DNA of 64,000 nucleotides from Candidatus Omnitrophota bacterium (GTDB taxonomy: Bacteria > Omnitrophota > Gorgyraeia > Gygaellales > Profunditerraquicolaceae): contig JALOQK010000002.1 in the NCBI GenBank assembly GCA_025453395.1, positions 149,625 to 213,624 of the forward strand, given 5' to 3'. The notes beneath the pieces were generated by a model that was given only the letters and a program-made list of their open reading frames with translations, was not told where the DNA came from and did no database searches. Below, in pieces: positions 24,708 to 39,483 of the stretch. A program made the translations under genes and the position numbers. The first letter of the stretch is position 1. Every line of letters begins with the position of its first letter.

Positions 24708-24730
24708 TTATATAATAAAGCCCTTTTGCT

Positions 24731-25204: not shown

Positions 25205-25206
25205 AA

Positions 25207-25512
25207 ATGGCTATACATCCGTCTTTACGCATGTCTGATAAAGGCAAAAAACAAAGGTCTGTGTTAAAGCGCACTGAACGGCTTAAGCACATGATAGATC
25301 ATGGTACATGGAAACAGGGCGATGATATCTTCGGCCTTCCCAAGATTAAGACCGTGGCCCTAAAGATCAAAAAAGAAAAAGCCGCAGCCGCGCCTGCCGC
25401 CGGAACTGAAGTCGCAGCAGCAGCTCCCGGGGCCGCCACCGCAGCAGCAGCCGCGCCAGCAGCTAAGGCCGCTGGTAAGCCGGCAGCAACTAAGGCAGCC
25501 GAGAAGAAATAA
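25207..25512 (+). CDS. Small basic protein (Sbp-like) with Ala/Lys-rich C-terminal tail
   Basis: N-terminal MAIHPSLRMSDKGKKQRSVLKRTERLKHMIDHGTW resembles the small basic protein family. The C-terminal 40 aa are poly-Ala/Lys low complexity. RBS aaggagg. Confidence 0.5.
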   Translation: MAIHPSLRMSDKGKKQRSVLKRTERLKHMIDHGTWKQGDDIFGLPKIKTVALKIKKEKAAAAPAAGTEVAAAAPGAATAAAAAPAAKAAGKPAATKAAEKK

Positions 25513-25515
25513 GAG

Positions 25516-26142
25516 ATGACCAGCATCGGCGATCTGATTCTGTCTTTTGGGTTTCTTATTATCGCCATAACTGTGCATGAATTTTCCCATGGGTTTGTTG
25601 CCTATAAATTGGGAGACAATACCGCTAAATATTCCGGCCGGCTAAGCCTTAATCCTTTAGCTCATATTGATCCCTTTGGCACAATAATCTTACCCATTCT
25701 TCTGTATTTCACAACCGGCGGAAGGTTTGTTTTTGGCTATGCCAAGCCGGTGCCGGTTAATACCATGGCTTTAGGGCACCCCAAGAGGGACATCGGTTTT
25801 GTTTCTTTGGCTGGGCCGCTGTCGAATATAACATTCGCCTTTCTTCTAAGCCTCTTAGTGCGCTTTTTGCATCTTCCCGGGGCGTCCAATTATTTCTTGG
25901 TATCTCTAATTAATATCAACGTTATCTTAGGGGTGTTTAATCTATTGCCGATACCGCCTCTGGATGGTTCGGGAATATTGATATCGTTGCTTCCTCAAAG
26001 GCTTGCCATAATATACTCTTCTTTAGAGCGTTATGGATTTATCCTGCTTATAGTGCTTATTTTATTTAATATTACAGACTATTTTGTCTGGCCGTTGGTA
26101 AGATTAATCCTTAATTTTATGTTAGGCGGAGTATCAATATGA
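25516..26142 (+). CDS. Site-2 protease family (M50) zinc metalloprotease
   Basis: HEFSHG (HExxH) in a TM helix, multiple TM segments, and the LLPIPPLDGS motif. Confidence 0.75.
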   Translation: MTSIGDLILSFGFLIIAITVHEFSHGFVAYKLGDNTAKYSGRLSLNPLAHIDPFGTIILPILLYFTTGGRFVFGYAKPVPVNTMALGHPKRDIGFVSLAGPLSNITFAFLLSLLVRFLHLPGASNYFLVSLININVILGVFNLLPIPPLDGSGILISLLPQRLAIIYSSLERYGFILLIVLILFNITDYFVWPLVRLILNFMLGGVSI

Positions 26143-27218
26143 AATCCATAAAAGTAAATTTGGGGAAGAGGTCTTATTCTATTATTGTCGGAAAAGGCGC
26201 GGTTGGTTTATTGGGGCAGAAGGTTAAAAGCCTTAAGCTGGGTGATAGCGCCTACATAGTGACCAATCCTGTTATTAAACGTAAATTTGCTCCGCTGTTA
26301 GTAAAAACTCTTAAAGCAAAAAAGATAGATACTTATTTTAAGCTTATCCCAGAGGGGGAGAGAAGCAAATCGTTTTCTTATTTCCAGGGCCTGCTTGAAG
26401 ACTTAGCGTGTTATGATAAAAACAGGAAAGTGTTTGTTGTTGCTTTGGGTGGAGGGGTTATCGGGGATCTGGCGGGGTTTGTTGCTTCGGTTTACAAACG
26501 CGGGATCGCTTATCTGCAGGTTCCCACGACTTTATTGGCGCAAGTTGACTCTTCTATCGGGGGGAAAACCGGCATAGATGTCTCAAGGGCAAAGAATTTA
26601 GCCGGGGCGATTTATCAGCCCAGGCTAGTTTTAAGTGACCCCTTGTTCTTAAAATCTTTGCATAAGAAGCAGATGGTAAACGCGATGGCGGAAATCGTTA
26701 AATATGCTTTAATTTCCGATTCCATGCTTTTTTCCTATTTGGAGAAAAATTACAAGCGCCTCATCAATAAAGACCCCGCTTGTTTGGAGCATGTGGTTTT
26801 TGTCACAAGCCGCATAAAATCTAAAATAGTAGAAAAAGACGAAGCTGACAAAAAAGGCATCCGGATTATACTTAATTTCGGCCATACCATTGGGCATGCG
26901 ATAGAGGCAGCTTCGGATTTTTCTTACAGCCACGGGCAGGCAGTGGCATTGGGCATGATTTGCGCCTGCCGGATAAGCCAGAGATTGGGATTTCTGGACG
27001 GTAAAGTTGTTTTAAGAGCAGAGAAACTGATCAAGAATATCGGCCTTCCCCGCAGGATTAAAGGAATTTCCTTAGATAAAATAATCAATGCCTATTATAA
27101 AGACAAGAAATTTTCCGGAAAGAAAAACCGCTTTGTGCTTATTCAGGGGATTGGCAGGCCTTTGGTAAAGGAAGAGATCCCTCTGGATTTGGTAAAGCAA
27201 GTGTTAGCTTCTATTTAG
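26139..27218 (+). CDS. aroB: 3-dehydroquinate synthase
   Basis: GGGVIGDLAGFVAS and PTTLLAQVDSSIGGKTGID motifs. Confidence 0.9.
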   Translation: MKSIKVNLGKRSYSIIVGKGAVGLLGQKVKSLKLGDSAYIVTNPVIKRKFAPLLVKTLKAKKIDTYFKLIPEGERSKSFSYFQGLLEDLACYDKNRKVFVVALGGGVIGDLAGFVASVYKRGIAYLQVPTTLLAQVDSSIGGKTGIDVSRAKNLAGAIYQPRLVLSDPLFLKSLHKKQMVNAMAEIVKYALISDSMLFSYLEKNYKRLINKDPACLEHVVFVTSRIKSKIVEKDEADKKGIRIILNFGHTIGHAIEAASDFSYSHGQAVALGMICACRISQRLGFLDGKVVLRAEKLIKNIGLPRRIKGISLDKIINAYYKDKKFSGKKNRFVLIQGIGRPLVKEEIPLDLVKQVLASI

Positions 27219-27687
27219 GTTTACGTATTTTGACCAGCACGCCTTTGTAATCTAATTCTACCCCTTCAAGAGAAATCTTCTGCACTGTCGCCTCATGCAC
27301 TTTATCTAATTTGCGCACTACTTTATTATCTATGATTGCATAGGCGTCATTATCGGCGATAAATATGCCGGATAAAATAAAAGTGGGGGGTATTATCGGT
27401 TCCGGGGCTGCAGCGGGTGTTGGAATAGGCGCAGGCGCTGGTGTTTGTTGCGCCGCAGGCGGTTTTGGGGTGTTTTCAGTTTGCGCGGGCAGAGGTTTTT
27501 TTGGAGCAGGAGTTTTTATTGTAGTTTTCCGGCAGACAGGTTTTGTTATTGGGGCAGGATCGTTTTTTTGTTTGCGCACGTAATTGGAAAAGAAATTAAA
27601 CACGAAATTAGCCAGAATCACCGTGATGATGGCCGCTGAGATATAAATAAGGTATGGGCTTACTTTTTTGTTTTGGCTGCCGCTCAT
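27211..27687 (-). CDS. Membrane-anchored protein with proline-rich linker, possibly GspC/PilP-like
   Basis: N-terminal TM, a Pro/Ala/Thr-rich linker, and a C-terminal 60-aa beta-rich domain. Confidence 0.45.
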   Translation of the reverse strand: MSGSQNKKVSPYLIYISAAIITVILANFVFNFFSNYVRKQKNDPAPITKPVCRKTTIKTPAPKKPLPAQTENTPKPPAAQQTPAPAPIPTPAAAPEPIIPPTFILSGIFIADNDAYAIIDNKVVRKLDKVHEATVQKISLEGVELDYKGVLVKIRKPK

Positions 27688-27737
27688 AAAACATATTATA
27701 ACAAAAAAAATATTATTGTAAAGTGAAGACTCACCGC

Positions 27738-27766
27738 TTGACAGGAAATATCTTCTATGTTATATT
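27738..27766 (+). promoter_or_regulatory. Sigma-70-type promoter for the PilZ cluster
   Basis: TTGACA, 17-bp spacer, TATATT, then 12 nt to the ATG at 27779. Confidence 0.4.
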
Positions 27767-27778
27767 AGGGGCAAATAT

Positions 27779-28132
27779 ATGCTGGAAAAATACCTTAATC
27801 CAAGCAACAAGAGGTGTTTGAACCGTATCAAGGCGCATCAGGCAGTACGCTATCAGATAAGGGGTAATCAGAGCTTCGATAGCGCGGTTACTGATGATCT
27901 AAGCTGCGCAGGACTGTCTTTTACCAACGATAAATTCATCAGTCTTGATACGCTTCTTATGTTTCAGATTAATGTTTTATCCCGCATGATAAGCCCTATC
28001 GGCAGGGTTTGCTGGGTTAATAACGTCCCGTTTTCAGATCGTTTCCGCTACGGAGTGCAATTTGTAGAAGTTGATCCCTCCCAGAAACGCTATCTAAGCG
28101 ATTACGTGGATATGCAAGGCGGTAAATTCTAA
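27779..28132 (+). CDS. PilZ-domain protein
   Basis: KRCLNR (RxxxR) and DLSCAGLSF (DxSxxG). Confidence 0.6.
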   Translation: MLEKYLNPSNKRCLNRIKAHQAVRYQIRGNQSFDSAVTDDLSCAGLSFTNDKFISLDTLLMFQINVLSRMISPIGRVCWVNNVPFSDRFRYGVQFVEVDPSQKRYLSDYVDMQGGKF

Positions 28133-28160
28133 AATTTAAGACACGAAAGGAAAAACAATC

Positions 28161-28319
28161 ATGGCAGATGAAGTAAAGAAACAGGAAAAGCAGACTAATT
28201 GCCCGGCATGCAATAAGCCGATAAAGAAGATACGCCGTTATTACCGTAACGGGATGTATTATTGCACTAAGAAATGCTGGAAAAAGGCCGTAACCTCCAA
28301 GAAGGAAGAGAAAGAATAA
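28161..28319 (+). CDS. Small zinc-ribbon protein (52 aa); not in the ORF track
   Basis: CPACN...YYCTKKC, four Cys in two pairs. SD gaaagg upstream. Its stop overlaps the next start (taATG). Confidence 0.45.
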   Translation: MADEVKKQEKQTNCPACNKPIKKIRRYYRNGMYYCTKKCWKKAVTSKKEEKE

Positions 28320-28699
28320 TGCCTAGTAAAGCGCAAGAACGCCGGCTTCATCCGCGTATTGAGCATGCTTTGCCCCTTAAGATAGCGGCAAACGGCTATG
28401 ATTTTGCCACTACTACTGAGAATGTCAGTTGCCTTGGCGCTTATTGCAATATCGGCAAGTACGTTCCGCCTTTTACGCGCATATCGGTAAAGCTTAATCT
28501 TCCTATCGCCACCAAAAAGGGAGTTAAATCTTCCAAATTGGAATGTAACGGGGTAATCGTGCGTTCCCAGGACGATGCCAAGGGGGGTTTTAACATCGCC
28601 ATATTTTTTAACCGTATCAACCAGGCCCAGAAAAAGTCACTTTCGCGTTATGTGGGGCAGTTCATAAATCCTCCCGTAGTTTCTTCAAAGAAAGCTTGA
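28319..28699 (+). CDS. PilZ-domain protein
   Basis: RRLHPR (RxxxR) and NVSCLGAYC (NxSxxG). Confidence 0.6.
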   Translation: MPSKAQERRLHPRIEHALPLKIAANGYDFATTTENVSCLGAYCNIGKYVPPFTRISVKLNLPIATKKGVKSSKLECNGVIVRSQDDAKGGFNIAIFFNRINQAQKKSLSRYVGQFINPPVVSSKKA

Positions 28700-29226
28700 T
28701 GGGGCAAATAAAGAAACCTTATCCTGCAAAATTATTTTTCGGTTTCATCTATCAAGACGCGTCTTTTTACTCCCAGGCAATAAAAATCATTAACCGAGAT
28801 TTTGGCAGATTTGACTATCAAAGCGTAGAGTTTGGCTTTGATTACACTGATTACTATCAGCCGGAATTCGGGCTTAACTTAAAAAGAAGGTTTGTAAGCT
28901 GTCAGGACTTAATCGATCCCGCCAAGCTTTATAAAATCAAAATATTCTCCAATAGATTAGAGGACAAGTTTTCATCTTTAGGCAAAAGAAAGGTCAATAT
29001 TGACCCCGGCATGCTTGATTTGGCTAAGGTGGTTTTGGCTACTACCAAGGATTTTGCCCATCGGGTTTATCTTAATAAGGGAATTTTTGCTGAAGTAACT
29101 TTATTGTTCAAAGGGAAAACCTATCAGCATTTGCCCTGGACATATCCTGATTACCGCACCCAAAAGTATATTGATCTATTTCTTGAAATGAGAAAATTGT
29201 ATGTGCTTAAGATCAAAGATCTGTAG
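28696..29226 (+). CDS. DUF4416-family protein
   Basis: N-terminal PAKLFFGFIY resembles DUF4416. About 176 aa. Confidence 0.5.
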   Translation: MMGQIKKPYPAKLFFGFIYQDASFYSQAIKIINRDFGRFDYQSVEFGFDYTDYYQPEFGLNLKRRFVSCQDLIDPAKLYKIKIFSNRLEDKFSSLGKRKVNIDPGMLDLAKVVLATTKDFAHRVYLNKGIFAEVTLLFKGKTYQHLPWTYPDYRTQKYIDLFLEMRKLYVLKIKDL

Positions 29227-29944
29227 CTTATTACTGCTTTCTGTTTTATTGGGCGGCTGTGTCACCGTTTATAACCCTGCCACAGGGAAAAACGAGGCCA
29301 TGTTTATTGACACCCCCCTTGAAGTATCCTTTGGGGAAAATATGGATAAGCAAATCAAGAAAGAGATGAAGCTGTCCAATAATCCCCTAATGGTCAGCCG
29401 CCTTGAGAAAATCGGCAACGCTGTAGCTGGCGTTTCTGATAGAAAAGACATAACTTACCGTTTCCGCGTTATTGATGATAAACAGCTCAACGCTTTTACC
29501 ATTCCCGGCGGATATATTTATGTGAATAGCGGTTTGATGGATGCCGCCAATGATGATGAGTTGGCTTGTGTTATTGCCCATGAGCTTGGACATTTGGCAG
29601 CAAGACACCCCGCCAAAAAAATGCAGGCGGCTTTAGGCTATCAGGTAATAGTTGGCATTGCTGCTGGCTTTGATGCCAAAGATTATATGATGCAGGCGAT
29701 GGACGCGGTTTTTAGTATATCAAGCTTAGGTTATAGCCGCAAAGACGAGCTTGCCGCGGATAAGTTATCGGTAAAATACTCCCGCAGGGCCGGATATAGC
29801 CCCTATGGGATGGTGACTATGTTTGCGAAACTTGAGAAAGAAGCTAAGGCTAACGGAAAAAATAATTACCCCGAATTCTTAAGGTCGCATCCTCCCACAG
29901 ACGCAAGAATAAAAGGCATAGAAAATGAGATTAAAGAAGAGTAA
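29201..29944 (+). CDS. M48 family zinc metalloprotease lipoprotein
   Basis: Lipobox LLGGC, HELGH (HExxH) and a downstream Glu. Confidence 0.8.
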   Translation: MCLRSKICSLLLLSVLLGGCVTVYNPATGKNEAMFIDTPLEVSFGENMDKQIKKEMKLSNNPLMVSRLEKIGNAVAGVSDRKDITYRFRVIDDKQLNAFTIPGGYIYVNSGLMDAANDDELACVIAHELGHLAARHPAKKMQAALGYQVIVGIAAGFDAKDYMMQAMDAVFSISSLGYSRKDELAADKLSVKYSRRAGYSPYGMVTMFAKLEKEAKANGKNNYPEFLRSHPPTDARIKGIENEIKEE

Positions 29945-30896
29945 TTATATAGAAGCCTATAGCAGCGGCAGCTTAAAAAAGATAGCTGATAATCTGCTAA
30001 ATAGCCTTAAATCCTGCGCAATTTGCCCGCGCCGCTGCCAGGTAAACCGCCTGGAAGGGGAGAGGGGGTATTGCCGCACAGGCATCCTGCCTAAGATGTA
30101 TAGTTATTTGTCTCACCATGGCGAAGAGCCGCCTGTTTCCGGGGTAAAAGGTTCAGGGGTGATATTTTTTTCAAGTTGTAATATGTCTTGTGCCTACTGC
30201 CAGAATTATCAGTTCAGTCAGTTAGATAGAGGAAATGAAATAACTTTCCGGCAATTGGCTAATATAATGCTGGGCTTGCAGAAACTGGGTTGCCACAATA
30301 TAAATTTTGTCACGCCCACCCATGTTCTGCCCCAGATTTTACAAGGTTTACTGATTGCTATTCCCGAAGGCCTAAAGATACCGTTAGTTTACAATACCAA
30401 TGGCTATGAATTGCCGCAGATCATTAAACTATTAGATGGGATTATTGATGTGTATCTGCCTGACATGCGCTACGCGGATAAAGATGCGTCGGTTAAATAT
30501 TCTGATGCCGCAGATTATCCTTTGTATAATCAGAAAGCAGTAAAAATCATGCATGAGCAGGTAGGCATTGCTAAATTTGATAAAAAGGGATTTATAAGCC
30601 GCGGGCTTATTATCCGGCATTTGGTTTTGCCGCAAGGATTATCCGGCACAGAAAAAATCATGCGTTTTATTGCCAAAGAAATAGGACCGGATACTTATAT
30701 TAGTTTAATGAGCCAGTATTATCCGTATCACAAGGCTTTGCGGGATCCCGGTATCGCGCGAAGAATTACATTAGAAGAATATACCGCAGCGCGAGAAATG
30801 ATGCACAATGCCGGGCTTGGTAATGGCTGGACACAGGATGATAATGGCTTAGAAAGTTTAGCCGGAGCGCATGTGGAAGAAAAATATGAAGCTTAA
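29925..30896 (+). CDS. Radical SAM protein, PflX/COG1313 family (AmmeMemoRadiSam system radical SAM enzyme-like)
   Basis: N-terminal CAICPRRCQVNRLEGERGYCRTG and radical SAM cluster motif CNMSCAYCQN. Confidence 0.8.
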   Translation: MRLKKSNYIEAYSSGSLKKIADNLLNSLKSCAICPRRCQVNRLEGERGYCRTGILPKMYSYLSHHGEEPPVSGVKGSGVIFFSSCNMSCAYCQNYQFSQLDRGNEITFRQLANIMLGLQKLGCHNINFVTPTHVLPQILQGLLIAIPEGLKIPLVYNTNGYELPQIIKLLDGIIDVYLPDMRYADKDASVKYSDAADYPLYNQKAVKIMHEQVGIAKFDKKGFISRGLIIRHLVLPQGLSGTEKIMRFIAKEIGPDTYISLMSQYYPYHKALRDPGIARRITLEEYTAAREMMHNAGLGNGWTQDDNGLESLAGAHVEEKYEA

Positions 30897-31368
30897 CAGA
30901 TTAAGCGCCTTAAGGCTTCTTAAGTTTGTGTATTTAAAATCCCGGAGAATACGCGATAATCCGCACAGGGTGGCCCTGGGATTTGCTTTAGGTATTTTTA
31001 TCGGGGTTATGCCAGCAGTGGGGCCTTTGGCAGCTTGGTTTATTGCCTCGTTTCTAAGAATCAACCGCATAAGCGCTATTTTGGGCAGTCTTATTTCCAA
31101 TACTTGGGTAACATTTATTACTTTTATTTTATCCTTAAAGATAGGATCTTGGATTTTCGGCCTTGATTGGCATAGCCTATACGGAGAAGTAAAAGTTTTG
31201 CTCAAAGATTTTCACTTTAGATATTTATTGGATTCCATTATAATTAGTAAAATTATGCCTTTGATTTTAGGCTATATTGTTATTTCCTTAATTTTCGCTT
31301 TTATAGGATATGTAATTATATTTATTATTTTTAGCCTGCATCGCAAGGGCTCTAAGTTGACAAAATAA
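30871..31368 (+). CDS. DUF2062-family membrane protein
   Basis: PHRVALGFALGIFIGVMPAVG motif followed by TM helices. Confidence 0.6.
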   Translation: MWKKNMKLNRLSALRLLKFVYLKSRRIRDNPHRVALGFALGIFIGVMPAVGPLAAWFIASFLRINRISAILGSLISNTWVTFITFILSLKIGSWIFGLDWHSLYGEVKVLLKDFHFRYLLDSIIISKIMPLILGYIVISLIFAFIGYVIIFIIFSLHRKGSKLTK

Positions 31369-31412
31369 CCCGCTTGTGTTATAGTGCATTTTAAGAAAGA
31401 GGAGGGGATACA

Positions 31413-31874
31413 ATGAAAATAAAGCCCGTTTTAATTTTTGCGGCAATTTTAACTTTTCCTTTAGCAGTTATGGCTTATGAATTCCAGAAAGAATACCCCG
31501 AAGTGCAAACTAAGGTTGAATACTCCAAAAAAGCTATTGATCCGGATGCCGGAAATGTGTACAAGACCCCGTTTAATAAAATGTACCGCGGGCTTATTAA
31601 TATAAGCACTTCTTGGGTAGAAATTCCCGCGGAATGCTTTAAAGTCGGCAGCGAAAAAAACCCGGTTTTGGGCGTGACTTTAGGGGCTATGCAGGGCTGC
31701 GTTTTGGCAGTTTGCAGGATTGTCACAGGCGCCTTTGACGCGGTAACTTTTGTTATCCCGCCTTATGATAAACCGATTATGAAGCCTGAATTTGCCTTAC
31801 AAAGGGCTGACCAGAAATACTGCGAGTATTTTGACCTTTATGATGGCCAACCCAAGCCAGAAAGCCAAAAGTAG
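31413..31874 (+). CDS. Secreted hypothetical protein (possibly TIGR04073-like, exosortase-associated)
   Basis: Signal peptide. Motif RGLINISTSWVEIP. SD aggagg upstream. Confidence 0.45.
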   Translation: MKIKPVLIFAAILTFPLAVMAYEFQKEYPEVQTKVEYSKKAIDPDAGNVYKTPFNKMYRGLINISTSWVEIPAECFKVGSEKNPVLGVTLGAMQGCVLAVCRIVTGAFDAVTFVIPPYDKPIMKPEFALQRADQKYCEYFDLYDGQPKPESQK

Positions 31875-32036
31875 GTCCTAATGGCATAGACCTGTGTTAG
31901 TCTGGCAATCCCTGTTAAGTTTAACTAATCCAAGTAACTCCCAGTAAGTCTGAAATCATAGAAAATCCCCTAAAAACATATCTTTTGTAACTGCTTTAAG
32001 TATAAGGTCTTAGAGGCAGTATTACGTGTATTATGT

Positions 32037-32064
32037 AGTTAACATAAGATATATTATAGGAAGT
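32037..32064 (-). other. dif chromosome dimer resolution site (XerC/XerD) at the replication terminus
   Basis: The - strand reads ACTTCCTATAA-TATATC-TTATGTTAACT, matching 25 of 28 positions of B. subtilis dif (ACTTCCTAGAATATATATTATGTAAACT). It lies in the convergent strand-switch region. Confidence 0.7.
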
Positions 32065-32148
32065 ACAGGTATAGGGCAAATAGGCCTGGCCGACGCTGTT
32101 TGAGTGGGTTTTAATCCTTGGTTTTTTGGGGTTTTGGGCGGGTTTTCC

Positions 32149-32454
32149 TTACTTTGAGCTTAATACGTAGACTCCGCCTTGGATCTTGATTGTCTTTCCG
32201 TTTACTAAACAATCTGCTATTCTTTTGCGCGCTTTCTTAAGTATCCGGCTAAAGGTCTGCTGGGATATATGCATAGACCTGGCAGCTTGTTTCTGGCCTT
32301 CTCCTATAAAGTCTGATAATCTAATGGCCTCAAACTCATCCATGCTTAAATCTGCTTCATCCGGCCTTCCGGGCCTGCCCCTGGGGCTGAATTGGTTGAT
32401 CTTGGGGTCTAATCTTACTATTCGGTATTTTTTAGGGCGTCCGCGGGGTTCCAT
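32149..32454 (-). CDS. DUF134 (UPF0251) family DNA-binding protein
   Basis: MEPRGRPKKYRIV...LSMDEFEAIRLSDFIGEGQKQAARSMHISQQTFSRILKKARKRIADCL matches the DUF134 profile. Confidence 0.7.
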   Translation of the reverse strand: MEPRGRPKKYRIVRLDPKINQFSPRGRPGRPDEADLSMDEFEAIRLSDFIGEGQKQAARSMHISQQTFSRILKKARKRIADCLVNGKTIKIQGGVYVLSSK

Positions 32455-32530
32455 AATAATATTAAATAAGTTTTAAGGAAATTTCTTAACTAAAGTGTTA
32501 CCTATTTTTACCTAAGTTTAACCTGCCGGT

Positions 32531-32554
32531 TATAATGAGTACTTACTCATTATT
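32531..32554. promoter_or_regulatory. Perfect palindrome ATAATGAGTA-ct-TACTCATTAT upstream of the DUF134 gene; candidate operator
   Basis: 10-bp inverted arms with a 2-bp centre, about 80 bp upstream of the DUF134 start. Confidence 0.35.
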
Positions 32555-32619
32555 GATGCCCAAACGCGCGACTGACTCTGGTATTTTATTGCTGTAAATT
32601 ATTGGTAATAAATGGTTTA

Positions 32620-32805
32620 TTAGATTTCCGCGTCTTTGACCAATTTGCGGTAATAATCAATGCATTCCTGGCAAGCCCCTTTATCTACTTTCCACTTGGG
32701 GTGATCCTTCTTAATAAGTTCTAAAATATATTCTTCAGCTTTGATATGGGCAATGCTTACGTAATCGTCTATTTCACGGTTGCAGATCTGGCATTTGTAT
32801 TTCAT
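32620..32805 (-). CDS. Small zinc-ribbon protein (CxxC...CxxC)
   Basis: 61 aa. CQICN ... CQEC. Confidence 0.4.
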   Translation of the reverse strand: MKYKCQICNREIDDYVSIAHIKAEEYILELIKKDHPKWKVDKGACQECIDYYRKLVKDAEI

Positions 32806-32806
32806 C

Positions 32807-32989
32807 TTATTTGATGCAGTCCTCTCTCCAGCAGCAGCTCATCTGAGCGCATGAATGGTTGGCTGTGCCGAAACAGGATGAAAAACCCTCTTTGGCCTGT
32901 ATTTGTTTGATCAAATCTTTTTTAGAATGTTTCCAGGTGTCTTTTAATCCCAGTTGCTTTGCCTTTTTTTCTACTTCGGTCAATCTCAT
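32807..32989 (-). CDS. Small protein with Rho_N/SAP-like helix-extension-helix N-terminus and Cys-rich C-terminus
   Basis: LTEVEKKAKQLGLKD..KKDLIKQIQ, then CFGTANHSCAQMSCCWREDC. SD aggggggaga. Confidence 0.4.
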   Translation of the reverse strand: MRLTEVEKKAKQLGLKDTWKHSKKDLIKQIQAKEGFSSCFGTANHSCAQMSCCWREDCIK

Positions 32990-33012
32990 TTCTCCCCCCT
33001 TTTTTTGTTTTT

Positions 33013-33046
33013 GCTGATAGCTGAAGGCTGATAGCTGATAGCTGAC
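33013..33046. repeat. 10-bp tandem array (CAGCTATCAG on the - strand, x3 plus a fourth copy with one mismatch)
   Basis: gctgatagctgaaggctgatagctgatagctga lies immediately upstream (on the - strand) of the SD of the small Cys-rich gene. Confidence 0.6.
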
Positions 33047-33052
33047 GATTGA

Positions 33053-33772
33053 TTACTCCGGGCTATAAAACGCTTTTTTCAATTTATCCTTGTGCCTTTG
33101 CGCTTGATAGATGTATTCGTAGGTTTCGTCTTGGCTGTAGAGCTTGAATTTCTGGTTTAACGAGCAGGAAGCCAGTTGAATATCTTTTCCTACCTTTCCG
33201 TCCTGTGAAGCAGTTTCAAGTATGGCGTAAGTAGCTAGTTCTAAGGCATGTTTTAAGGTAATTTCCTTGGTGTATAAGGTATTTAATAGATAGGTTGCAA
33301 AAGGCGTAATTCCTATGGACATAAATCCAAGAAGCGTCCAGCGGTGCGGCGCGAAATTGCGTTCGCTGTAAAGAGTGAATATTTCCGGGCAGTTAATAAT
33401 ATTCGCGCCGTTTATATCCTTGCGGTAGCCGCTTATGATAAAATGCAGCGTTGGCCGTTCATCAAAAGTCATCTTGCCGAACCACTCGTTGTATTTATGT
33501 ATCGCGCTTTCCCGGCAGACAGAAAGCATTTCATCTATGCTTAAATTGCGGTAGCCGGGGTTTTTGTGCAGTTGATAATATATAAGGTCAATAATGCTTG
33601 CCCCTAATCCGCCGTCACCGGCAAGGGTGAGGCCGCAGTAATCGCCCAGCTCAAAGACTTTTTTTACCGTGTCGTTTACGGTTGTGGGGCCGCGCGGGTC
33701 GCCGCTTGTAACCCGGCTGTCAGCGGCTAAGGCGATCCCGTCATCGGCGATAATGCTTATGGCAAGGGTCAT
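33053..33772 (-). CDS. Proteasome beta-subunit-like Ntn hydrolase (20S beta/HslV/Anbu superfamily)
   Basis: N-terminus M-TLAISIIADDGIALAADSRVTSG gives Thr immediately after Met (candidate Thr1 nucleophile) and Asp17 in the proteasome-beta pattern. About 239 aa. Confidence 0.6.
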   Translation of the reverse strand: MTLAISIIADDGIALAADSRVTSGDPRGPTTVNDTVKKVFELGDYCGLTLAGDGGLGASIIDLIYYQLHKNPGYRNLSIDEMLSVCRESAIHKYNEWFGKMTFDERPTLHFIISGYRKDINGANIINCPEIFTLYSERNFAPHRWTLLGFMSIGITPFATYLLNTLYTKEITLKHALELATYAILETASQDGKVGKDIQLASCSLNQKFKLYSQDETYEYIYQAQRHKDKLKKAFYSPE

Positions 33773-33773
33773 A

Positions 33774-34157
33774 TTATTTATTTTTATACACTAGATCGTG
33801 CTGCCTTACCCGCGAGATGACCTCTAGGCCTATTTCCTGATTCTTTTTAGCGGTTGATATAGGCGCATGGTCCATCTGCATGGAATTTATGTTTTGGGTA
33901 AAGTCGGTTGTGTGCCCTTTAAAGCGCACTGAATCTCCGGTTGATAACGGCAGTTTTACCTTTATTACGGCTGCGCTTACTTTGGGGAAATAATGCGTGA
34001 CAATCCCCACGATAGTGCCTTCTTGCTTTTTCTTTACGATTTTCTTTTTGGCGGCAGACTTTTTCTTGATTGCTTTTTTTGCCGGCTTTTTTTGGGCTAT
34101 TTTCTTTGCCGGTTTTTTCTTGAGGCGGGTTGTTTTCTTTTTTTTCTTAAGAGGCAT
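33774..34157 (-). CDS. Lysine-rich (histone H1-like) protein with C-terminal EF-Tu domain-2-like beta-barrel
   Basis: The N-terminal 45 aa are K-rich. The C-terminal motif GTIVGIVTHYFPKVSAAVIKV...GDSVRFKG...EIGLEV resembles translation-factor domain II. Confidence 0.5.
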   Translation of the reverse strand: MPLKKKKKTTRLKKKPAKKIAQKKPAKKAIKKKSAAKKKIVKKKQEGTIVGIVTHYFPKVSAAVIKVKLPLSTGDSVRFKGHTTDFTQNINSMQMDHAPISTAKKNQEIGLEVISRVRQHDLVYKNK

Positions 34158-34170
34158 AAGAAACCTCCTT

Positions 34171-34485
34171 TTAAAGGATTATTTTATCTGCGATTTCGGC
34201 AACTACCGGTATACGGGTGTATTTTCCAAGCAAAGCCTGCGTACAGCCCCAAAAGACGAACAGCAAATACAAGAATACAACTATCCTTGATACTATCCAG
34301 CCTAAAAGCGGGATAATATTAATGATCAACCCGGAAACAAGGAGAATGAGAAGCACCAGGCCTTGTTTGCCGTGGAACACAGCGAATTTATTTTCTTTTT
34401 TCAGGATCAAGGGCAGGATGCACAAGAACGGTAAATACCCTGCCATTGCCAGAATTTTAGCTTCCTGAATTTCGTCTTGAGGCAT
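34171..34485 (-). CDS. DUF4870-family small membrane protein
   Basis: KILAMAGYLPFLCILPLIL...FAVFHGKQGLVLLIL pattern and three TM helices. Confidence 0.5.
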   Translation of the reverse strand: MPQDEIQEAKILAMAGYLPFLCILPLILKKENKFAVFHGKQGLVLLILLVSGLIINIIPLLGWIVSRIVVFLYLLFVFWGCTQALLGKYTRIPVVAEIADKIIL

Positions 34486-35582
34486 TATTTAATCTGAAGC
34501 AATGAATTAGTTTGGCCAAAAGGATTTTCTGCTTTTTCCGGATTAGCCGGGTCGTCTGTCCAGGTGCCGTCAATGACAAAGCGGTAATTATATCTTCCCG
34601 GAGAAAGGTTTAATTTTTTCTGCCAGACACCGTTTTCGCGCTGCATAATGCTTGTGTCGTTTAATTCCCAATTGTTGAAATCCCCGACCACATAGACCTC
34701 TTTTGCCTGCGGAGCGCTTAATTCAAATACAAATTCAGCCATTTTGGGAAGCGTTTCTTTAATGGTTTTTTGCATGCGAGTTGCGATTTTTTCCATCTTG
34801 GTTTCTTTTGCGGAATCTTTAGTAGTTGTCGCGCCTGATAAAAGTTCGCGCGATAAGCTGTAATAGTCTTTTGTGCCGCGGCAGTATTTGTCAAAGGCAA
34901 CCACGTGCATACCCTGGGATTGGGCTTCCTTAAGTTTGACGTTGACATGGATAATGGTGTCAAAAAGCCCGCCCTTAAAGTCGGTTTTTATCTTTTCAAG
35001 TATCCTAAAGGAATGCCTAAGCCTTGAATCAAAATTGGTGACCAGTATTTTATGGGTTATCTTATGCCCTAAACGGTCGCGGATAAGCTCTACAATGTCC
35101 ATTAACTGCCCTAAGCCTACTAATGAAAAGCGGCTTGCCTCCACCGGTATAATCACCTCATGGCTGGCGCGAAGCGCGTTAATGGTCAAAATACCTAAAT
35201 TCGGAGGGCAGTCTATTAACATATAATCATAGTTGGATTTAAAATTATTCAGGACTTCCCAAAGGCGCGATTCGCGGCTTATTTCGCCGGCTAATTCCTG
35301 TTCCAGTGTGCTTAGGATAATTCCCGACGGAGCAATGTCAAAATTGGCGGAAACGCTTCTTATGATATCGTCAATGCGTACTTTTTTATTAGTTAATTTG
35401 GAGAGGACATTATAAATATTATATTGGGTATCTATGTTTAACCCAAAAGTCGCGTGCGCCTGCGGATCAAGATCTATTAAAAGGACTTTTTTGCCGTTTA
35501 CTGCCAGGTTTGCCGCCAAGTTGATCGCCGTAGTTGTCTTTCCGCATCCTCCTTTTTGATTCGCCACCGCAATTATGCGCAT
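34485..35582 (-). CDS. ParA/MinD-family P-loop ATPase fused to a C-terminal CBM48 (AMPK-beta-type glycogen-binding) domain
   Basis: Deviant Walker A (IAVANQKGGCGKTTTAINLA) and LIDLDPQ. The C-terminal 80 aa, VYVVGDFNNWELNDTSIMQRENGVWQKKLNLSPGRYNYRFVIDGTWTDDPANP, match the CBM48/AMPK1_CBM consensus. Confidence 0.8.
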   Translation of the reverse strand: MRIIAVANQKGGCGKTTTAINLAANLAVNGKKVLLIDLDPQAHATFGLNIDTQYNIYNVLSKLTNKKVRIDDIIRSVSANFDIAPSGIILSTLEQELAGEISRESRLWEVLNNFKSNYDYMLIDCPPNLGILTINALRASHEVIIPVEASRFSLVGLGQLMDIVELIRDRLGHKITHKILVTNFDSRLRHSFRILEKIKTDFKGGLFDTIIHVNVKLKEAQSQGMHVVAFDKYCRGTKDYYSLSRELLSGATTTKDSAKETKMEKIATRMQKTIKETLPKMAEFVFELSAPQAKEVYVVGDFNNWELNDTSIMQRENGVWQKKLNLSPGRYNYRFVIDGTWTDDPANPEKAENPFGQTNSLLQIK

Positions 35583-35598
35583 AAAGCTCTCCCCCTTT

Positions 35599-36156
35599 TT
35601 ATTTGATAAACCTTACGTTATCCACTAAGACTACGCCTGTTTTAGATTTTGTGTTCCATGCTTCCACGGTAAAATTCAATTTGCTCATTTCTGTCCAGTC
35701 GCTTATATTTTTGAATTCCGAAAGGTTGACGTTGTATTCCTGCCATTTGCGCGGGATGTCCTTTAAATAAACCAAAGAATTCTCCTTGAAAGAATTAGAC
35801 ATCTCTACTTTCATGTTCACGGTGTCGGTGTATTCGTTTTTCTTCAAGGCAAAAGCGATACTTTTATATTTTGTAACATTAAGCCGGTTAAGATTTATAG
35901 TATAAGTTTCTTTTTCCGCCGGGTCAAAATGGAAATTTATTTTGGCGCTTCCCTCTTGAAGGACCAAGGCAATTTGAGTGTTGTTTTTGGCCTTGCGGCT
36001 TCCAAAAGTGAAAAACACCCCCACAATCAATATTATCGCTATGCTAAAGAAAAATATATTCTTTAAGAACGAATAATTCTTTTTCTTCTTGTTTTTCTTC
36101 AGCGACGCGTCAAGGTAGATTTTGGCGAGGTGTTCGTAAATATCCTTTTTTTCCAT
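35599..36156 (-). CDS. Membrane-anchored hypothetical protein (single TM, C-terminal beta-rich domain)
   Basis: K-rich cytoplasmic N-terminus, one TM helix, and a C-terminal domain ending VVLVDNVRFIK (carbohydrate-binding-module-like). Lies in an operon between the GH57 and ParA genes. Confidence 0.45.
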   Translation of the reverse strand: MEKKDIYEHLAKIYLDASLKKNKKKKNYSFLKNIFFFSIAIILIVGVFFTFGSRKAKNNTQIALVLQEGSAKINFHFDPAEKETYTINLNRLNVTKYKSIAFALKKNEYTDTVNMKVEMSNSFKENSLVYLKDIPRKWQEYNVNLSEFKNISDWTEMSKLNFTVEAWNTKSKTGVVLVDNVRFIK

Positions 36157-36189
36157 TTCAAGGATTTATAACACAAAAGTCACTGCCTG

Positions 36190-37743
36190 TCAACAGGTAA
36201 TAGGTGTTTTTAGGTAATCGGGGGGTTGTTTCCCGATGAGTTTATAGAAGTTAGATAAATGCCTTCTAAAAAGCTCATCAAAGGCCTCCGGGCCCTCTCC
36301 GTACCACCAAAACCAGTCGCTTCCTTCGGCAATGTACATTTGCTTCCAGGCCAAATCTGGAATTTTCTCGCCTCTATCTTGCATGTCCTGTAATTCTTTT
36401 CTGGCTATTGCCAGGTATTCCCAGGCGCGCGCCTTGGCAGCGTTTCCGATCCATTTGCCAAATTCCGAATAGATCCAGCTTCCTGCGGCAAGCCGTTTGA
36501 TCTGTTTTTTAGCCGGGAATTTATTCAGGTATTCTTTTACGGTTGTGGTTTGTATATTATCGCTTTCAGAAAGCTTTGTGTAAAGAAGCTCCAAGAAATC
36601 ATGGCCGTCATTTTTATAATATTCCCAGGCGTTTTCTCCGTCCATGGCGATAGTTACCAGGATATCTGTATTTTTAAAAGCGGCGGCGGTATTTTCCAGG
36701 TGCTTCATAAAATCCTCTACCGCGTCTTTGGTGTTCCAGTGGTGGTAAGAAAAGCCGATCATGTCCGAGAGGTTTCGGTCGCGAAATACTACTGCTAACT
36801 CCCCTGCCTCTCTTTTAATTAGATGCGGCTGATAAAGCAATTTAGTGTCTCTTTTTTTGGCGCGCAACGATCTAAAGAGCATAGACTCGTCGGTAACGAT
36901 CCATTTTATGCCCGCGTTCATGATAAAGGGCAAGATATGTTCGCTGACTGCTTCTTCCGAAGGCCACATGCCAACCGGAGAAGCGCCAAATTTATTTTTA
37001 TATAAAGCTACTGCGCTGTCTATTTGGGTTTGGGCGTCTTGGGGATAGGCGAATGCCGGCTTAGGAAGAATAGTTTTGATGTTAGCTTCCTTGGCAACAT
37101 TGGTATTGTATAATAATGGCAGTATGGGGTGATAATAGGGATTGGCAGTAATTTCAATTTGGCCGGTTGCTTGAAACTTGCGGCAGACCGGGATGATCTC
37201 TTCTAAGATATGGGTTTGAGTGTCCAGACAGATGTGCTTATCTTCTTCTGTAAAATCGCGGGCCTTGGCCACAAGCCTGCTTAATTGCGGCAGGTTTTGC
37301 CGGTAATAGGGGTCAATCCAGGCCAGATTAAACCAGACCTGCAGGTCTAGGGTCTCTTGATCGTTGAATTGATGCCCTTGCTTGCGCTTGTAGAAAAGCT
37401 CGTAATAGCGCGGGAAACAGAAGATCACCTTCTCCGGGTTAATCATAAAGAAGTTGTCGCGGATAAAATCGCGTTCTTCCCTTGTTAGTTCAGGCACAGC
37501 CTTATAAGAAAGTTCTAAGAATTTATCTTTAATGGTTCTATTGGTATAATCATCAATTTGCTCTAATAAAGACGGGACAAAATTAAAGGTTTGGTGGATG
37601 CGCGGGAATTTCTCCAGCATCAGGATCATGTCCGCGTAGTCTTTTACCCCATGCAAGCGCACCCAGGGCATGTTGGTTTCCTGTGTCAACAGGTCCTTGT
37701 AATAGGGCTGGTGCATGTGGAAGATAAAAGCCAGATATAACAT
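36190..37743 (-). CDS. Glycoside hydrolase family 57 enzyme (probable 1,4-alpha-glucan branching enzyme / alpha-glucan processing)
   Basis: N-terminal FHMHQPYY (GH57 region I) and a downstream catalytic region. About 517 aa, as for GH57 branching enzymes. Confidence 0.8.
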   Translation of the reverse strand: MLYLAFIFHMHQPYYKDLLTQETNMPWVRLHGVKDYADMILMLEKFPRIHQTFNFVPSLLEQIDDYTNRTIKDKFLELSYKAVPELTREERDFIRDNFFMINPEKVIFCFPRYYELFYKRKQGHQFNDQETLDLQVWFNLAWIDPYYRQNLPQLSRLVAKARDFTEEDKHICLDTQTHILEEIIPVCRKFQATGQIEITANPYYHPILPLLYNTNVAKEANIKTILPKPAFAYPQDAQTQIDSAVALYKNKFGASPVGMWPSEEAVSEHILPFIMNAGIKWIVTDESMLFRSLRAKKRDTKLLYQPHLIKREAGELAVVFRDRNLSDMIGFSYHHWNTKDAVEDFMKHLENTAAAFKNTDILVTIAMDGENAWEYYKNDGHDFLELLYTKLSESDNIQTTTVKEYLNKFPAKKQIKRLAAGSWIYSEFGKWIGNAAKARAWEYLAIARKELQDMQDRGEKIPDLAWKQMYIAEGSDWFWWYGEGPEAFDELFRRHLSNFYKLIGKQPPDYLKTPITC

Positions 37744-37764
37744 TAGGGGGATCCTTAAGGTTAA

Positions 37765-37804
37765 TAAAAAACCCTCGAGGAGTGGCTTCCCCGAGGGTTT
37801 TTTA
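37765..37804. terminator. Bidirectional rho-independent terminator
   Basis: Stem ACCCTCG/CGAGGGT with an A-run upstream and a T-run downstream. It lies between the porin stop and the GH57 start. Confidence 0.6.
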
Positions 37805-37819
37805 TTACATTTTCCGTAA

Positions 37820-39368: not shown

Positions 39369-39483
39369 GAGTTATTTACCTAGAAAAAGGTACACCTGGC
39401 CTTCCGATAGGCCAGGGTGTTAGACTCTAGGGGCACACCGGCGCAATTCAGATAAGCGCGAGGTGCTACACTACCCATATTTG

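What the first reader, a model, noticed from the sequence alone, without database searches (positions are those of the whole stretch)
31875..32148. Convergent strand switch with a near-consensus dif site: the replication terminus lies inside this window
All 50-plus genes left of about 31.9 kb are on the + strand and all genes right of about 32.1 kb are on the - strand, so transcription converges on this 275-bp gap. On the - strand the gap holds ACTTCCTATAATATATCTTATGTTAACT (32037-32064). This matches the 28-bp XerC-arm / 6-bp spacer / XerD-arm layout and is identical to B. subtilis dif at 25 of 28 positions (XerD arm 10/11). A degenerate inverted copy of the XerD arm (TTATGTAGTTAAC) abuts it, forming a palindrome around GTTAAC.
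Basis: partly seen in the sequence, partly recalled or inferred. Interest (0 to 1): 0.6.

Follow-up and report, generated by a model that had tools for sequence, protein, structure and literature searches.

The report
Conserved dif site in Omnitrophota chromosome
The 28-base sequence is a real, strongly conserved chromosome dimer-resolution (dif) site at the point where the two gene-orientation halves of an Omnitrophota chromosome meet, but base composition at silent sites indicates that replication forks do not actually meet there.

Summary
ACTTCCTATAATATATCTTATGTTAACT lies at 32037-32064 (- strand), once only, in the 274-bp gap between a + strand gene block and a - strand block that together span at least 90 kb. 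The window is a chromosome piece from a 'Candidatus Omnitrophica' MAG.

The site is a canonical 11-6-11 XerC/XerD-type dif. Each arm is identical to an arm of a published dif prediction. Two relatives fetched through a neighbouring protein carry it at 27/28 and 28/28 at the same junction, in otherwise unconserved DNA. At least 120 metagenome contigs carry both arms exactly, and 55 show the same Omnitrophota gene order.

The claim that the replication terminus lies in this window is only partly supported. Total GC skew falls from +0.11 to -0.01 at the site, but this comes from codon positions 1 and 2 changing strand. At third codon positions, four-fold sites and intergenic DNA the + strand stays G-rich on both sides, from -8 kb to +82 kb.

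The best reading is a genuine dif at the structural terminus. The left fork habitually runs at least 50 kb past it. Xer genes and the whole-genome skew could not be checked. New member of a known kind; moderate interest.

The parts
32037..32064 (-). dif site, 28 bp: ACTTCCTATAA-TATATC-TTATGTTAACT
   Evidence: unique in the window, 0 of 100 shuffles; 26/28 to the predicted S. aureus and B. anthracis dif sites; 27/28 and 28/28 in the relatives L009 and L011; at least 120 contigs carry the exact arms, 55 of them with Omnitrophota synteny.
32054..32064 (-). XerC-type arm ACTTCCTATAA
   Evidence: Identical to the XerC arm of the predicted S. aureus dif (Kono 2011 Table S1). 10/11 to B. subtilis.
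32048..32053 (-). 6-bp central region TATATC, the inferred site of strand exchange
   Evidence: The same spacer occurs in 44 of 120 exact-arm contigs and in 34 of 50 aligned Omnitrophota loci. L009 has TATACC.
32037..32047 (-). XerD-type arm TTATGTTAACT
   Evidence: Identical to the XerD arm of the predicted dif sites of B. anthracis, Brachyspira and Acidobacteria Ellin345. 10/11 to the B. subtilis arm and to the gammaproteobacterial arm.
32031..32036 (.). TTATGT, a 6-bp inverted repeat of the inner XerD arm (pairs with 32042-32047).
   Evidence: Not kept in register in L009, L011 or the 50-locus alignment, where only CATA(T) recurs. Probably incidental.
31906..32036 (-). Non-coding flank on the XerD-arm side. 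In relatives it is a conserved module of about 125 nt made of sequence islands. The window keeps CATAA, CTAAG, GTTAC, GACTTACTGGGAGTTACTT and CTTAACA (31906-31950). In relatives the islands are a DnaA-box-like TGTGGATAA at +67, TTTACTTAAACTTACC at +88 and CTTGACA at +116.
   Evidence: agreement with the column majority is 0.61, against 0.51 on the other side of dif. No consensus RNA structure and no Rfam family. Function unknown.
31413..31874 (+). Last gene of the + strand block (TIGR04073-family exosortase-associated protein, 153 aa)
   Evidence: This side is variable in relatives: DinB, LexA and radical-SAM genes sit next to dif there.
32149..32454 (-). DUF134 (UPF0251) HTH protein gene, last gene of the - strand block. 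It is the conserved neighbour of dif.
   Evidence: PF02001, E = 4e-25; a DUF134 gene starts 330-450 nt before the XerC arm in most of the 47 (of 55) Omnitrophota-synteny contigs that carry one (four lie further out), and also in L009 and L011.
1..31874 (+). Left gene-orientation domain, about 42 of 44 genes on the + strand. Its coding strand is G/T-rich at silent sites.
32149..64000 (-). Right gene-orientation domain, all genes on the - strand (including dnaE, hisS, aspS, glyQS, ppdK and a sigma factor). Its coding strand is C/A-rich at silent sites, the composition of lagging-strand genes.

Best explanation
The 28-mer is the chromosomal dif site of an Omnitrophota bacterium.

Inferred mechanism, from established XerCD/FtsK biology:
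- A XerC-type recombinase binds ACTTCCTATAA and a XerD-type recombinase binds TTATGTTAACT.
- They exchange strands across the 6-bp TATATC centre.
- This resolves chromosome dimers at cell division.

The site sits exactly at the chromosome's structural terminus, where the two nearly single-stranded gene-orientation domains converge. It has been kept there, next to a DUF134 gene, throughout a large Omnitrophota clade.

It is not the place where replication forks have usually met. Silent-site composition shows the + strand behaving as the leading strand on both sides. So the fork coming from the left normally runs through dif and on for at least 50 kb, head-on to the - strand genes. The true skew inversion lies outside the window, to the right.

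The apparent GC-skew change at the site is a coding-strand effect.

Sub-probabilities: functional dif about 0.9; fork-meeting point displaced at least 50 kb to the right about 0.6.
For: Shown here:
- The site is unique and non-random.
- It has the 11-6-11 layout, with outer arm halves that differ and inner halves that are palindromic.
- Its arms are identical to those of published dif predictions.
- L009 and L011 were retrieved through ParA-CBM48 orthologues (68% and 64% identical), not through the DNA motif. They carry the site at 27/28 and 28/28 at the same DUF134 junction, while the surrounding spacer is about 50-60% conserved.
- At least 120 metagenome contigs carry the exact arms, and 55 of them show Omnitrophota synteny.
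- In 12-14 exact-arm contigs from other bacteria, a full-length XerD-like gene lies within a few kb of the site. This shows that the motif marks Xer loci.
- 24 viral contigs carry the arms with divergent spacers, some with the site within about 100 nt of a contig end.
- Complete Omnitrophota genomes have one-strand replichores.

Evidence on skew:
- Coding-strand GC3 is +0.067 (window) and +0.086 (flank) on the left, against -0.151, -0.160 and -0.166 on the right.
- AT3 is about -0.2 on the left against +0.10 to +0.17 on the right.
- The Mann-Whitney test on per-gene GC3 gives p = 9e-10.
- Four-fold sites and intergenic DNA agree for GC skew.
- The two - strand genes on the left have the right-block composition.
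- The same orthologous block has the opposite sign in other lineages (L130, L115, L065), and L059 is canonical. So the effect belongs to the genome, not to the genes.
- The method does detect inversion at dif in 5 control loci.
- Published offsets between dif and the skew shift point are 0 to 1.39% of the genome at 1 sigma, with outliers below 3%.
Against: - No xerC, xerD or ftsK gene was seen in the 90 kb around the site or in any Omnitrophota locus (Pfam lists). The rest of the genome could not be read.
- Uniqueness in the genome is untested.
- For the 120 metagenome contigs the arms were fixed by the search pattern, so only L009 and L011 are unbiased evidence that the arms are conserved.
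- The KOPS-type polarity test was confounded by coding strand.
- A long-term head-on state for about 45 housekeeping genes (groESL, dnaE, six tRNA synthetases) is hard to reconcile with a phylum whose genes are almost all co-oriented.
- An offset of at least 50 kb is at or beyond the upper end of published dif-to-skew offsets for a 1.6-2.1 Mb genome.
- No skew inversion was actually found.
Confidence: 0.75

Rival explanations
1. One reading: forks converge and terminate at or very near this dif site, so the replication terminus in the strict sense is inside the window. The silent-site asymmetry would then have some non-replicative cause.
For: - The gene-orientation switch lies within about 100-170 bp of dif.
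- Complete Omnitrophota genomes have one-strand replichores and ordinary cumulative GC-skew plots.
- The naive cumulative G-C here peaks at 40.3 kb.
- One Omnitrophota locus (L059) and 5 loci from other bacteria show a clean inversion at the same 28-mer.
Against: - With forks converging at dif and co-oriented genes, coding strands on the two sides must have the same composition. They differ by 0.22 in GC3 and by about 0.3-0.4 in AT3, uniformly across about 50 and 45 genes.
- The drop in total skew is explained by codon positions 1 and 2 changing strand.
- No known process other than replication direction gives block-wide silent-site strand bias that also changes sign between lineages for the same orthologues.
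Confidence: 0.2
2. The 28-mer is not the host's dimer-resolution site. It would be an attachment or resolution site left by, or used by, a Xer-exploiting mobile element (IMEX, phage or plasmid-type site).
For: - 24 IMG/VR viral contigs carry the same arms, some with the site within about 100 nt of a contig end.
- Gene content on the XerD-arm side varies between relatives, with LexA/DinB cassettes and other genes.
Against: - No integrase, phage or plasmid genes flank the site here.
- The site is single, not paired.
- It occupies the same junction next to DUF134 in 47 or more contigs from different lineages.
- The viral copies mostly have other spacers, and none shows Omnitrophota synteny.
Confidence: 0.04
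3. The sequence is a conserved operator or other protein-binding palindrome, for example for the adjacent DUF134 HTH protein, and resembles dif only by convergence.
For: - It is tightly linked to the DUF134 gene.
- Further conserved islands lie next to it.
Against: - It is 25-26/28 identical to Firmicutes dif sites, with both arms matching exactly in other phyla.
- The same 28-mer sits beside XerD-like genes in unrelated low-GC bacteria that lack a detectable homologue of the Omnitrophota DUF134 protein.
- It lies downstream of DUF134, not at its promoter.
Confidence: 0.02

Closest known systems
Firmicutes dif: B. subtilis dif (CodV/RipX) and the predicted S. aureus and B. anthracis dif sites (Kono et al. 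2011, PMC3025954)
   Same: 28 bp in an 11-6-11 layout. 25/28 identical to B. subtilis and 26/28 to S. aureus and to B. anthracis. The XerC arm equals the S. aureus arm and the XerD arm equals the B. anthracis arm. It lies in the terminus region of a chromosome with strong gene-strand bias.
   Different: The host is an Omnitrophota bacterium. The spacer is TATATC. No xer gene is nearby. There is a conserved non-coding flank of about 125 nt on the XerD side and a conserved DUF134 neighbour. Silent-site skew does not invert at the site.
E. coli / gammaproteobacterial dif with XerC, XerD, FtsK and KOPS
   Same: Same architecture. The XerD arm is 10/11 identical to TTATGTTAAAT (the Dickeya entry in Kono Table S1). 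The presumed mechanism is the same.
   Different: The XerC arm diverges, giving about 21/28 overall. GGGNAGGG is rare and unskewed here, and no KOPS-like motif could be separated from coding bias. There is no Tus/Ter-type fork trap among the annotated genes.
Known offsets between dif and the replication terminus or GC-skew shift point. Sources: Kono et al. 2011; and, from memory, B. subtilis dif lying tens of kb from the RTP/Ter sites, and the debate opened by Hendrickson and Lawrence 2007.
   Same: dif and the compositional switch need not coincide. Published offsets are 0 to 1.39% of the genome at 1 sigma, with outliers below 3%. Three of the 15 scorable exact-arm dif loci from other bacteria also show uniform skew across dif.
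   Different: Here the offset is at least 50 kb, which is at least 2.4-3% of a 1.6-2.1 Mb genome. It occurs although gene orientation flips exactly at dif, so about 45 genes would be head-on.
Single-recombinase systems (difSL/XerS, difH/XerH) and plasmid or IMEX Xer sites (cer, psi, CTX-phi attP)
   Same: They are sites for tyrosine recombinases of the Xer type. Plasmid sites have accessory sequences next to the core.
   Different: In XerS and XerH systems the recombinase gene adjoins the site and the core geometry differs. Here the spacer is 6 bp and no recombinase gene lies within 50 kb. The cer and psi accessory DNA lies on the XerC side (from memory), whereas the conserved flank here is on the XerD side.

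Membership tests
XerC/XerD-type chromosomal dif site | 28-bp core: two 11-bp arms around a 6-bp central region, with the inner arm halves palindromic and the outer halves different | tested here: met
   ACTTCCTATAA / TATATC / TTATGTTAACT. The left arm matches the reverse complement of the right arm at 7 of 11 positions, all of the inner ATAA included.
XerC/XerD-type chromosomal dif site | Sequence match to experimentally defined or predicted dif sites | tested here: met
   25/28 to B. subtilis. 26/28 to the S. aureus and B. anthracis predictions. Each arm is identical to a published arm.
XerC/XerD-type chromosomal dif site | Purifying selection on the site relative to the surrounding non-coding DNA | tested here: met
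   L009 is 27/28 and L011 is 28/28. Both were fetched via a protein, not via the motif, and the flanking spacer is about 50-60% conserved.
XerC/XerD-type chromosomal dif site | One copy per chromosome | tested here: inconclusive
   The site is unique in the roughly 90 kb that could be read. The rest of the 346-kb/542-kb contig and of the MAG could not be fetched.
XerC/XerD-type chromosomal dif site | Location in the terminus region: convergence of gene orientation | tested here: met
   At least 40 kb of + strand genes and at least 50 kb of - strand genes converge on the gap. The same holds in L009, L011 and many metagenome loci. Literature on Omnitrophota replichores.
XerC/XerD-type chromosomal dif site | Location at or near the GC-skew shift point | tested here: not met
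   Total skew only falls to about 0. Silent-site GC skew keeps the same sign from -8 kb to +82 kb. Published dif sites can lie up to about 3% of the genome from the shift point, so this lowers the 'terminus here' claim, not the dif assignment.
XerC/XerD-type chromosomal dif site | Cognate XerC and XerD recombinases and FtsK encoded in the genome | not testable with these tools
   None lies within 90 kb of the site or in any Omnitrophota locus (tblastn with E. coli XerD; Pfam lists). No paper in the held library links Omnitrophota and Xer.
XerC/XerD-type chromosomal dif site | FtsK-orienting polar sequences converging on the site | tested here: inconclusive
   All strongly skewed 6- to 8-mers are purine-rich coding motifs. 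GGGNAGGG and GAGAAGGG are nearly absent. Near-total gene-strand bias confounds the test.
XerC/XerD-type chromosomal dif site | Recombination activity (dimer resolution) | not testable with these tools
   This needs biochemistry or genetics.
Single-recombinase dif (difSL/XerS, difH/XerH) | Recombinase gene adjacent to the site, with atypical core geometry | tested here: not met
   The spacer is 6 bp, the arms are canonical, and no tyrosine recombinase gene lies within 50 kb.
Replication fork trap (Tus/Ter or RTP/Ter) | Terminator protein gene next to polar Ter sites at the fork-meeting point | tested here: not met
   No Tus or RTP family appears in the Pfam lists of the 90 kb. Skew indicates that forks pass the site. 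The DUF134 protein plus the conserved flank is an untested candidate for some terminus-linked role.
IMEX / plasmid Xer site | Site flanked by mobile-element genes or duplicated as attL/attR | tested here: not met
   There is a single site, housekeeping or conserved neighbours, and the same junction in 47 or more contigs.

The most novel reading that the evidence does not exclude
In this Omnitrophota clade the structural terminus is uncoupled from where replication ends. The structural terminus is dif plus the flip of a near-absolute gene-strand bias.

One fork habitually runs tens of kb past dif, head-on through about 45 housekeeping genes. Which fork does so differs between lineages. Gene polarity in these genomes would then be organised around dif (segregation and FtsK-type polarity) rather than around fork direction.

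In addition, dif comes with a conserved flank of about 125 nt made of protein-binding-like islands (a DnaA-box-like 9-mer, TTAC repeats and a TTGACA element). It also has a DUF134 HTH gene as immediate neighbour in most syntenic contigs. Together these might form a new Xer-accessory or terminus-organising module.
Probability: 0.25. Interest if true: 0.6.

Novelty: new member of a known kind. Interest (0 to 1): 0.35.

Why it matters
Every circular bacterial chromosome is expected to have a dif site, so finding one is ordinary. The useful points are these:

- It gives Omnitrophota, an uncultured phylum, a defined dif consensus (ACTTCCTATAA-N6-TTATGTTAACT). This is a ready marker for the terminus when closing or checking MAGs.
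- In genomes whose genes nearly all follow one strand per replichore, the usual cumulative GC-skew plot mostly reports gene orientation. It can mislocate the true point of fork convergence, and third-position skew separates the two signals.
- If the fork really runs at least 50 kb past dif against about 45 essential genes, it questions whether the extreme strand bias of this phylum is maintained by avoidance of replication-transcription conflict.

Tried and rejected
1. Prophage idea. My first impression was that the compact + strand block with a 388-aa - strand gene at 7130-8296 was a prophage with attR at the site. I rejected this: the genes are SMC, EF-P, AccBC, PfkA, ThiC and the like, and the 388-aa protein is a GGDEF protein.

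2. My error. The genome-contig scan used ACTTCCTATAAT+N6+TTATGTTAACT, which is 29 nt with a 7-nt spacer. That pattern does not match the window's own site (noticed). Its single hit (L003, a Bacillaceae MAG) is irrelevant.

3. Sampling the source contig through its REP-like repeat. I scanned metagenome contigs with TTGTTTTGTAAT-N19-TAGCTAAAGCGTCTAC and found nothing, although the pattern matches the window three times. That collection does not hold the source contig.

4. Walking the contig was possible only by about 8-10 kb per step. One step was bought with the last homologue search and reached +82 kb without finding an inversion.

5. Homologues of the 153-aa flank protein. There were only 4. 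One contig (L008) ends before any strand switch, and one had no DNA.

6. Three further ParA-orthologue loci (L133-L135), plus L010, run on into polysaccharide and toxin-antitoxin genes. They have no strand switch within 10 kb.

7. A de novo KOPS search gave only coding-type purine-rich k-mers.

8. The conserved flank is not an RNA. RNAalifold predicts no pairs and there is no Rfam hit.

9. A promoter and terminator scan of the gap found nothing above shuffled expectation.

10. A literature search on DUF134 returned only unrelated DUF134x families.

Full report
WHAT IS THERE

The - strand of 32037-32064 reads ACTTCCTATAA-TATATC-TTATGTTAACT. It is the only match in the window within 3 mismatches of B. 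subtilis dif. None of 100 dinucleotide shuffles produced a match. The B. subtilis sequence itself was checked against Kono et al. 2011, PMC3025954. No other site with up to 5 arm mismatches exists in the roughly 90 kb of this genome that I could read.

The site lies in a 274-bp gap. On one side is a 153-aa TIGR04073-family gene ending at 31874 (+). On the other is a DUF134 gene at 32149-32454 (-).

The window is chromosomal, not phage. The left side holds SMC, S21, EF-P, AccB/C, PfkA, ThiC and DHQ synthase. The right side holds a ParA-CBM48 fusion, GH57, PPDK, GlyRS, AspRS, HisRS, RecO, YbeY, PhoH and DnaE.

The window comes from a 346-kb JGI metagenome contig. NCBI holds the same proteins on a 542-kb contig named 'Candidatus Omnitrophica bacterium'.

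Gene orientation:
- About 42 of 44 genes on the left are on the + strand. The exceptions are 7130-8296 and 27211-27687.
- All 31 or so genes on the right are on the - strand.
- The blocks continue to -8 kb and to +82 kb.

IS IT A DIF SITE? YES, WITH HIGH CONFIDENCE

The layout is the canonical 11-6-11. The XerC-type arm equals that of the predicted S. aureus dif. The XerD-type arm equals that of the predicted B. anthracis, Brachyspira and Acidobacteria dif sites. Overall identity is 26/28 to the first two (Kono Table S1).

The strongest evidence is comparative. I fetched relatives through orthologues of the ParA-CBM48 protein, 2.4 kb from the site, and not through the DNA motif.
- Two contigs from another sample keep the same convergent junction. 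Their ParA proteins are 68% and 64% identical to the window's.
- In the spacer after their DUF134 gene, the 28-mer is 27/28 (L009) and 28/28 (L011) identical.
- The rest of the spacer is poorly conserved.

- 55 of the 120 contigs carry Omnitrophota synteny.
- In 47 of those, a DUF134 gene lies just before the XerC arm, starting 330-450 nt before it in most.
- RadSAM, DUF2062, DUF4416, PilZ and DHQS genes converge from the other side.
- In the 50-locus alignment, agreement with the column majority is 0.98 in dif, against 0.51 upstream and 0.61 downstream. The arms of these 120 contigs were fixed by the pattern, so only L009 and L011 are unbiased evidence for the arms.

The same 28-mer in low-GC contigs from other bacteria lies within a few kb of full-length XerD-like genes, 37-42% identical to E. 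coli XerD, in 12-14 loci. The motif therefore does mark Xer loci.

Twenty-four viral contigs carry the arms with other spacers, some with the site within about 100 nt of a contig end. This is what Xer-exploiting elements would look like.

IS THE REPLICATION TERMINUS HERE? ONLY IN THE ARCHITECTURAL SENSE

[quoted passage not shown] A convergent switch is therefore the expected mark of the terminus region.

Total GC skew is +0.112 on the left and -0.010 on the right. The cumulative G-C peaks at 40.3 kb and then stays almost flat. Splitting by codon position shows why. Coding-strand GC skew is:

| Codon position | Left block | Right block |
|---|---|---|
| 1 | +0.29 | +0.26 |
| 2 | -0.10 | -0.17 |
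| 3 | +0.067 | -0.151 |

Read on the + strand, third positions are G-rich on both sides: +0.07 on the left and +0.15 on the right.

Further results point the same way:
- The flanks agree. Coding GC3/AT3 is +0.086/-0.227 on the left, against -0.160/+0.170 and -0.166/+0.119 on the right.
- Per-gene GC3 differs between the blocks with Mann-Whitney p = 9e-10.
- Four-fold sites give GC4 of -0.06 against -0.20 and AT4 of -0.31 against -0.06. Intergenic GC skew is +0.22 against -0.02. Both point the same way.
- The two - strand genes inside the left block have right-block composition, with GC3 of -0.119.
- A simple model fits all three gene groups. It has a constant replication term R of about +0.11 for the + strand and a coding term T of about -0.04.
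- A model with R inverting at 32 kb predicts +0.07 for the right block, where -0.15 is observed.

The + strand is thus G- and T-rich at silent sites, the classical leading-strand signature. This holds over the whole stretch from -8 kb to +82 kb. The step in total skew at the site is produced by positions 1 and 2 changing strand.

WHY THE SKEW DOES NOT INVERT

I compared the coding strands on the two sides of dif in every Omnitrophota locus with enough sequence, using third-position 'keto' skew (G+T against A+C).
- The XerD-arm side minus the DUF134 side is +0.25 in the window (z = 19).
- It is +0.15 in L009, +0.24 in L011, +0.20 in L027, +0.15 in L114 and +0.13 in L034.
- It is -0.41 in L130, -0.16 in L115 and -0.11 in L065.
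- In L059 both sides are G/T-rich, the canonical pattern.

The same orthologous genes therefore carry opposite silent-site skews in different lineages. The effect is positional and specific to each genome. It is not a property of the genes or of the orientation of dif.

As a control, the method finds a clean inversion at the 28-mer in 5 loci from other bacteria. It finds uniform skew in 3 and weak signal in 7.

Kono et al. found dif 0 to 1.39% of the genome (1 sigma; outliers below 3%) from the skew shift point. They concluded that termination is not tied to dif.

The most economical reading is that these organisms lack a fork trap at dif, and that forks meet wherever replichore lengths dictate. 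In this genome the left-arm fork has long crossed dif and continued for at least 50 kb. That would be at least 2.4-3% of a 1.6-2.1 Mb genome, if this genome is that size.

This is inference. I did not see the inversion and could not read further along the contig.

The uncomfortable consequence is that about 45 housekeeping genes would be transcribed head-on. They include groESL, dnaE and six tRNA synthetases. This would occur in a phylum noted for near-total co-orientation.

WHAT COULD NOT BE SHOWN
- No Xer or FtsK gene lies in the 90 kb or in any Omnitrophota locus.
- The rest of the genome is out of reach, so the presence of Xer genes and the uniqueness of dif remain untested.
- KOPS-like polarity cannot be separated from coding-strand bias when all genes point the same way.
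- My first genome-contig scan used a mistyped 29-nt pattern and is void.

EXTRAS AROUND THE SITE

On the XerD-arm side, relatives share about 125 nt of conserved sequence islands:
- CATAT at +6, CTAA at +25 and GTTA at +46;
- a DnaA-box-like TGTGGATAA at +67, perfect at that position in 8 of 50 loci and within 1 mismatch somewhere in the flank in 36 of 50;
- TTTACTTAAACTTACC at +88;
- CTTGACA at +116.

The window keeps a degenerate version at 31906-32036. The flank has no consensus RNA structure and no Rfam match. It looks like an array of protein-binding sites, and its role is unknown.

VERDICT

This is a genuine, phylum-level conserved XerCD-type dif at the structural terminus. The compositional terminus is elsewhere. 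It is a new member of a known kind, with a modestly interesting twist.

Noticed in passing
window 31906-32036; L009 13446-13575; L011 14050-14175; 50 aligned metagenome loci: About 125 nt of non-coding DNA on the XerD-arm side of dif is conserved as discrete islands spaced roughly 10-20 nt apart. The islands include a consensus DnaA box (TGTGGATAA, perfect at +67/68 in 8 of 50 loci), two TTAC-containing direct repeats and a TTGACA element. The flank is tied to dif and not to the neighbouring gene, which differs between lineages. There is no RNA structure and no Rfam hit.
   Followed up: partly
window 32149-32454 (-); 47 of 55 syntenic metagenome loci: A DUF134/UPF0251 HTH protein gene is the gene next to dif on the XerC-arm side across the clade, ending a few tens to about 100 nt from dif in most contigs. 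Gene content on the other side of dif varies. This could be plain synteny or a functional link such as a terminus- or Xer-associated DNA-binding protein.
   Followed up: partly
window 1711-1786, 1844-2554, 2563-2638, 39467-39527; left flank about -5.7/-5.5 kb: A Y1 (REP-associated tyrosine) transposase gene is flanked by 76-nt inverted REP-like repeats. Further copies of the repeat (core TTGTTTTGTAAT-N19-TAGCTAAAGCGTCTAC) lie elsewhere, and the 13-mer CTAAAGCGTCTAC also occurs inside a gene at 20763-20775. The pattern has no match in the metagenome collection.
   Followed up: partly
window 12437-12700 and 44470-44562: Arrays of 10-nt periodic repeats (AGGTTAAATG / AGGTTGCATG / AAGTTACATG) occur in direct and inverted orientation around a duplicated 48-nt unit. 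One array lies in the accB-accC spacer and a second lies between ppdK and glyQS. They resemble iteron or operator arrays.
   Followed up: no
window 34485-35582 (-), with 35599-36156 and 36190-37743: A ParA/MinD-type ATPase is fused to a CBM48/AMPK glycogen-binding domain, next to a GH57 enzyme. Full-length orthologues (63-69% identical) are very common in Omnitrophota. It may be a positioning system for glycogen granules.
   Followed up: no
L008, L009, L018, L030, L034, L042, L048, L062, L114 (XerD-arm side of dif): In many relatives a LexA / small protein / DinB-type Y-family polymerase cassette, or other cargo, sits between dif and the conserved RadSAM-DUF2062 block. In another subgroup (L010, L133-L135) polysaccharide and toxin-antitoxin genes extend the ParA block. 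The dif neighbourhood appears to be an insertion hot spot.
   Followed up: partly
L137-L160 (IMG/VR contigs): 24 viral contigs carry both exact dif arms with varied spacers, some with the site within about 100 nt of a contig end. L137 and L148 have the Omnitrophota spacer TATATC but unrelated flanks. These are candidate Xer-exploiting integrative elements.
   Followed up: partly
L014, L022, L024, L031, L047, L050, L054, L056, L073, L089, L113, L122: In low-GC contigs from other bacteria (24-30% GC) with the same dif arms, a XerD-like gene lies within a few kb of dif. In the Omnitrophota loci no recombinase gene is nearby.
   Followed up: no
window 19451-19521 (+) and 40188-40262 (-): tRNA-Gly(CCC) and tRNA-Arg(CCT) each follow the strand of their block. 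The mechanical ORF at 19429-19962 overlaps the tRNA-Gly, so the M23-peptidase-like gene there must start later.
   Followed up: no
window 33053-33772 (-), 32620-32805 and 32807-32989 (-): A proteasome/HslV-like 239-aa protein and two tiny ORFs (61 and 60 aa) are conserved in this order next to DUF134 in many Omnitrophota contigs.
   Followed up: no
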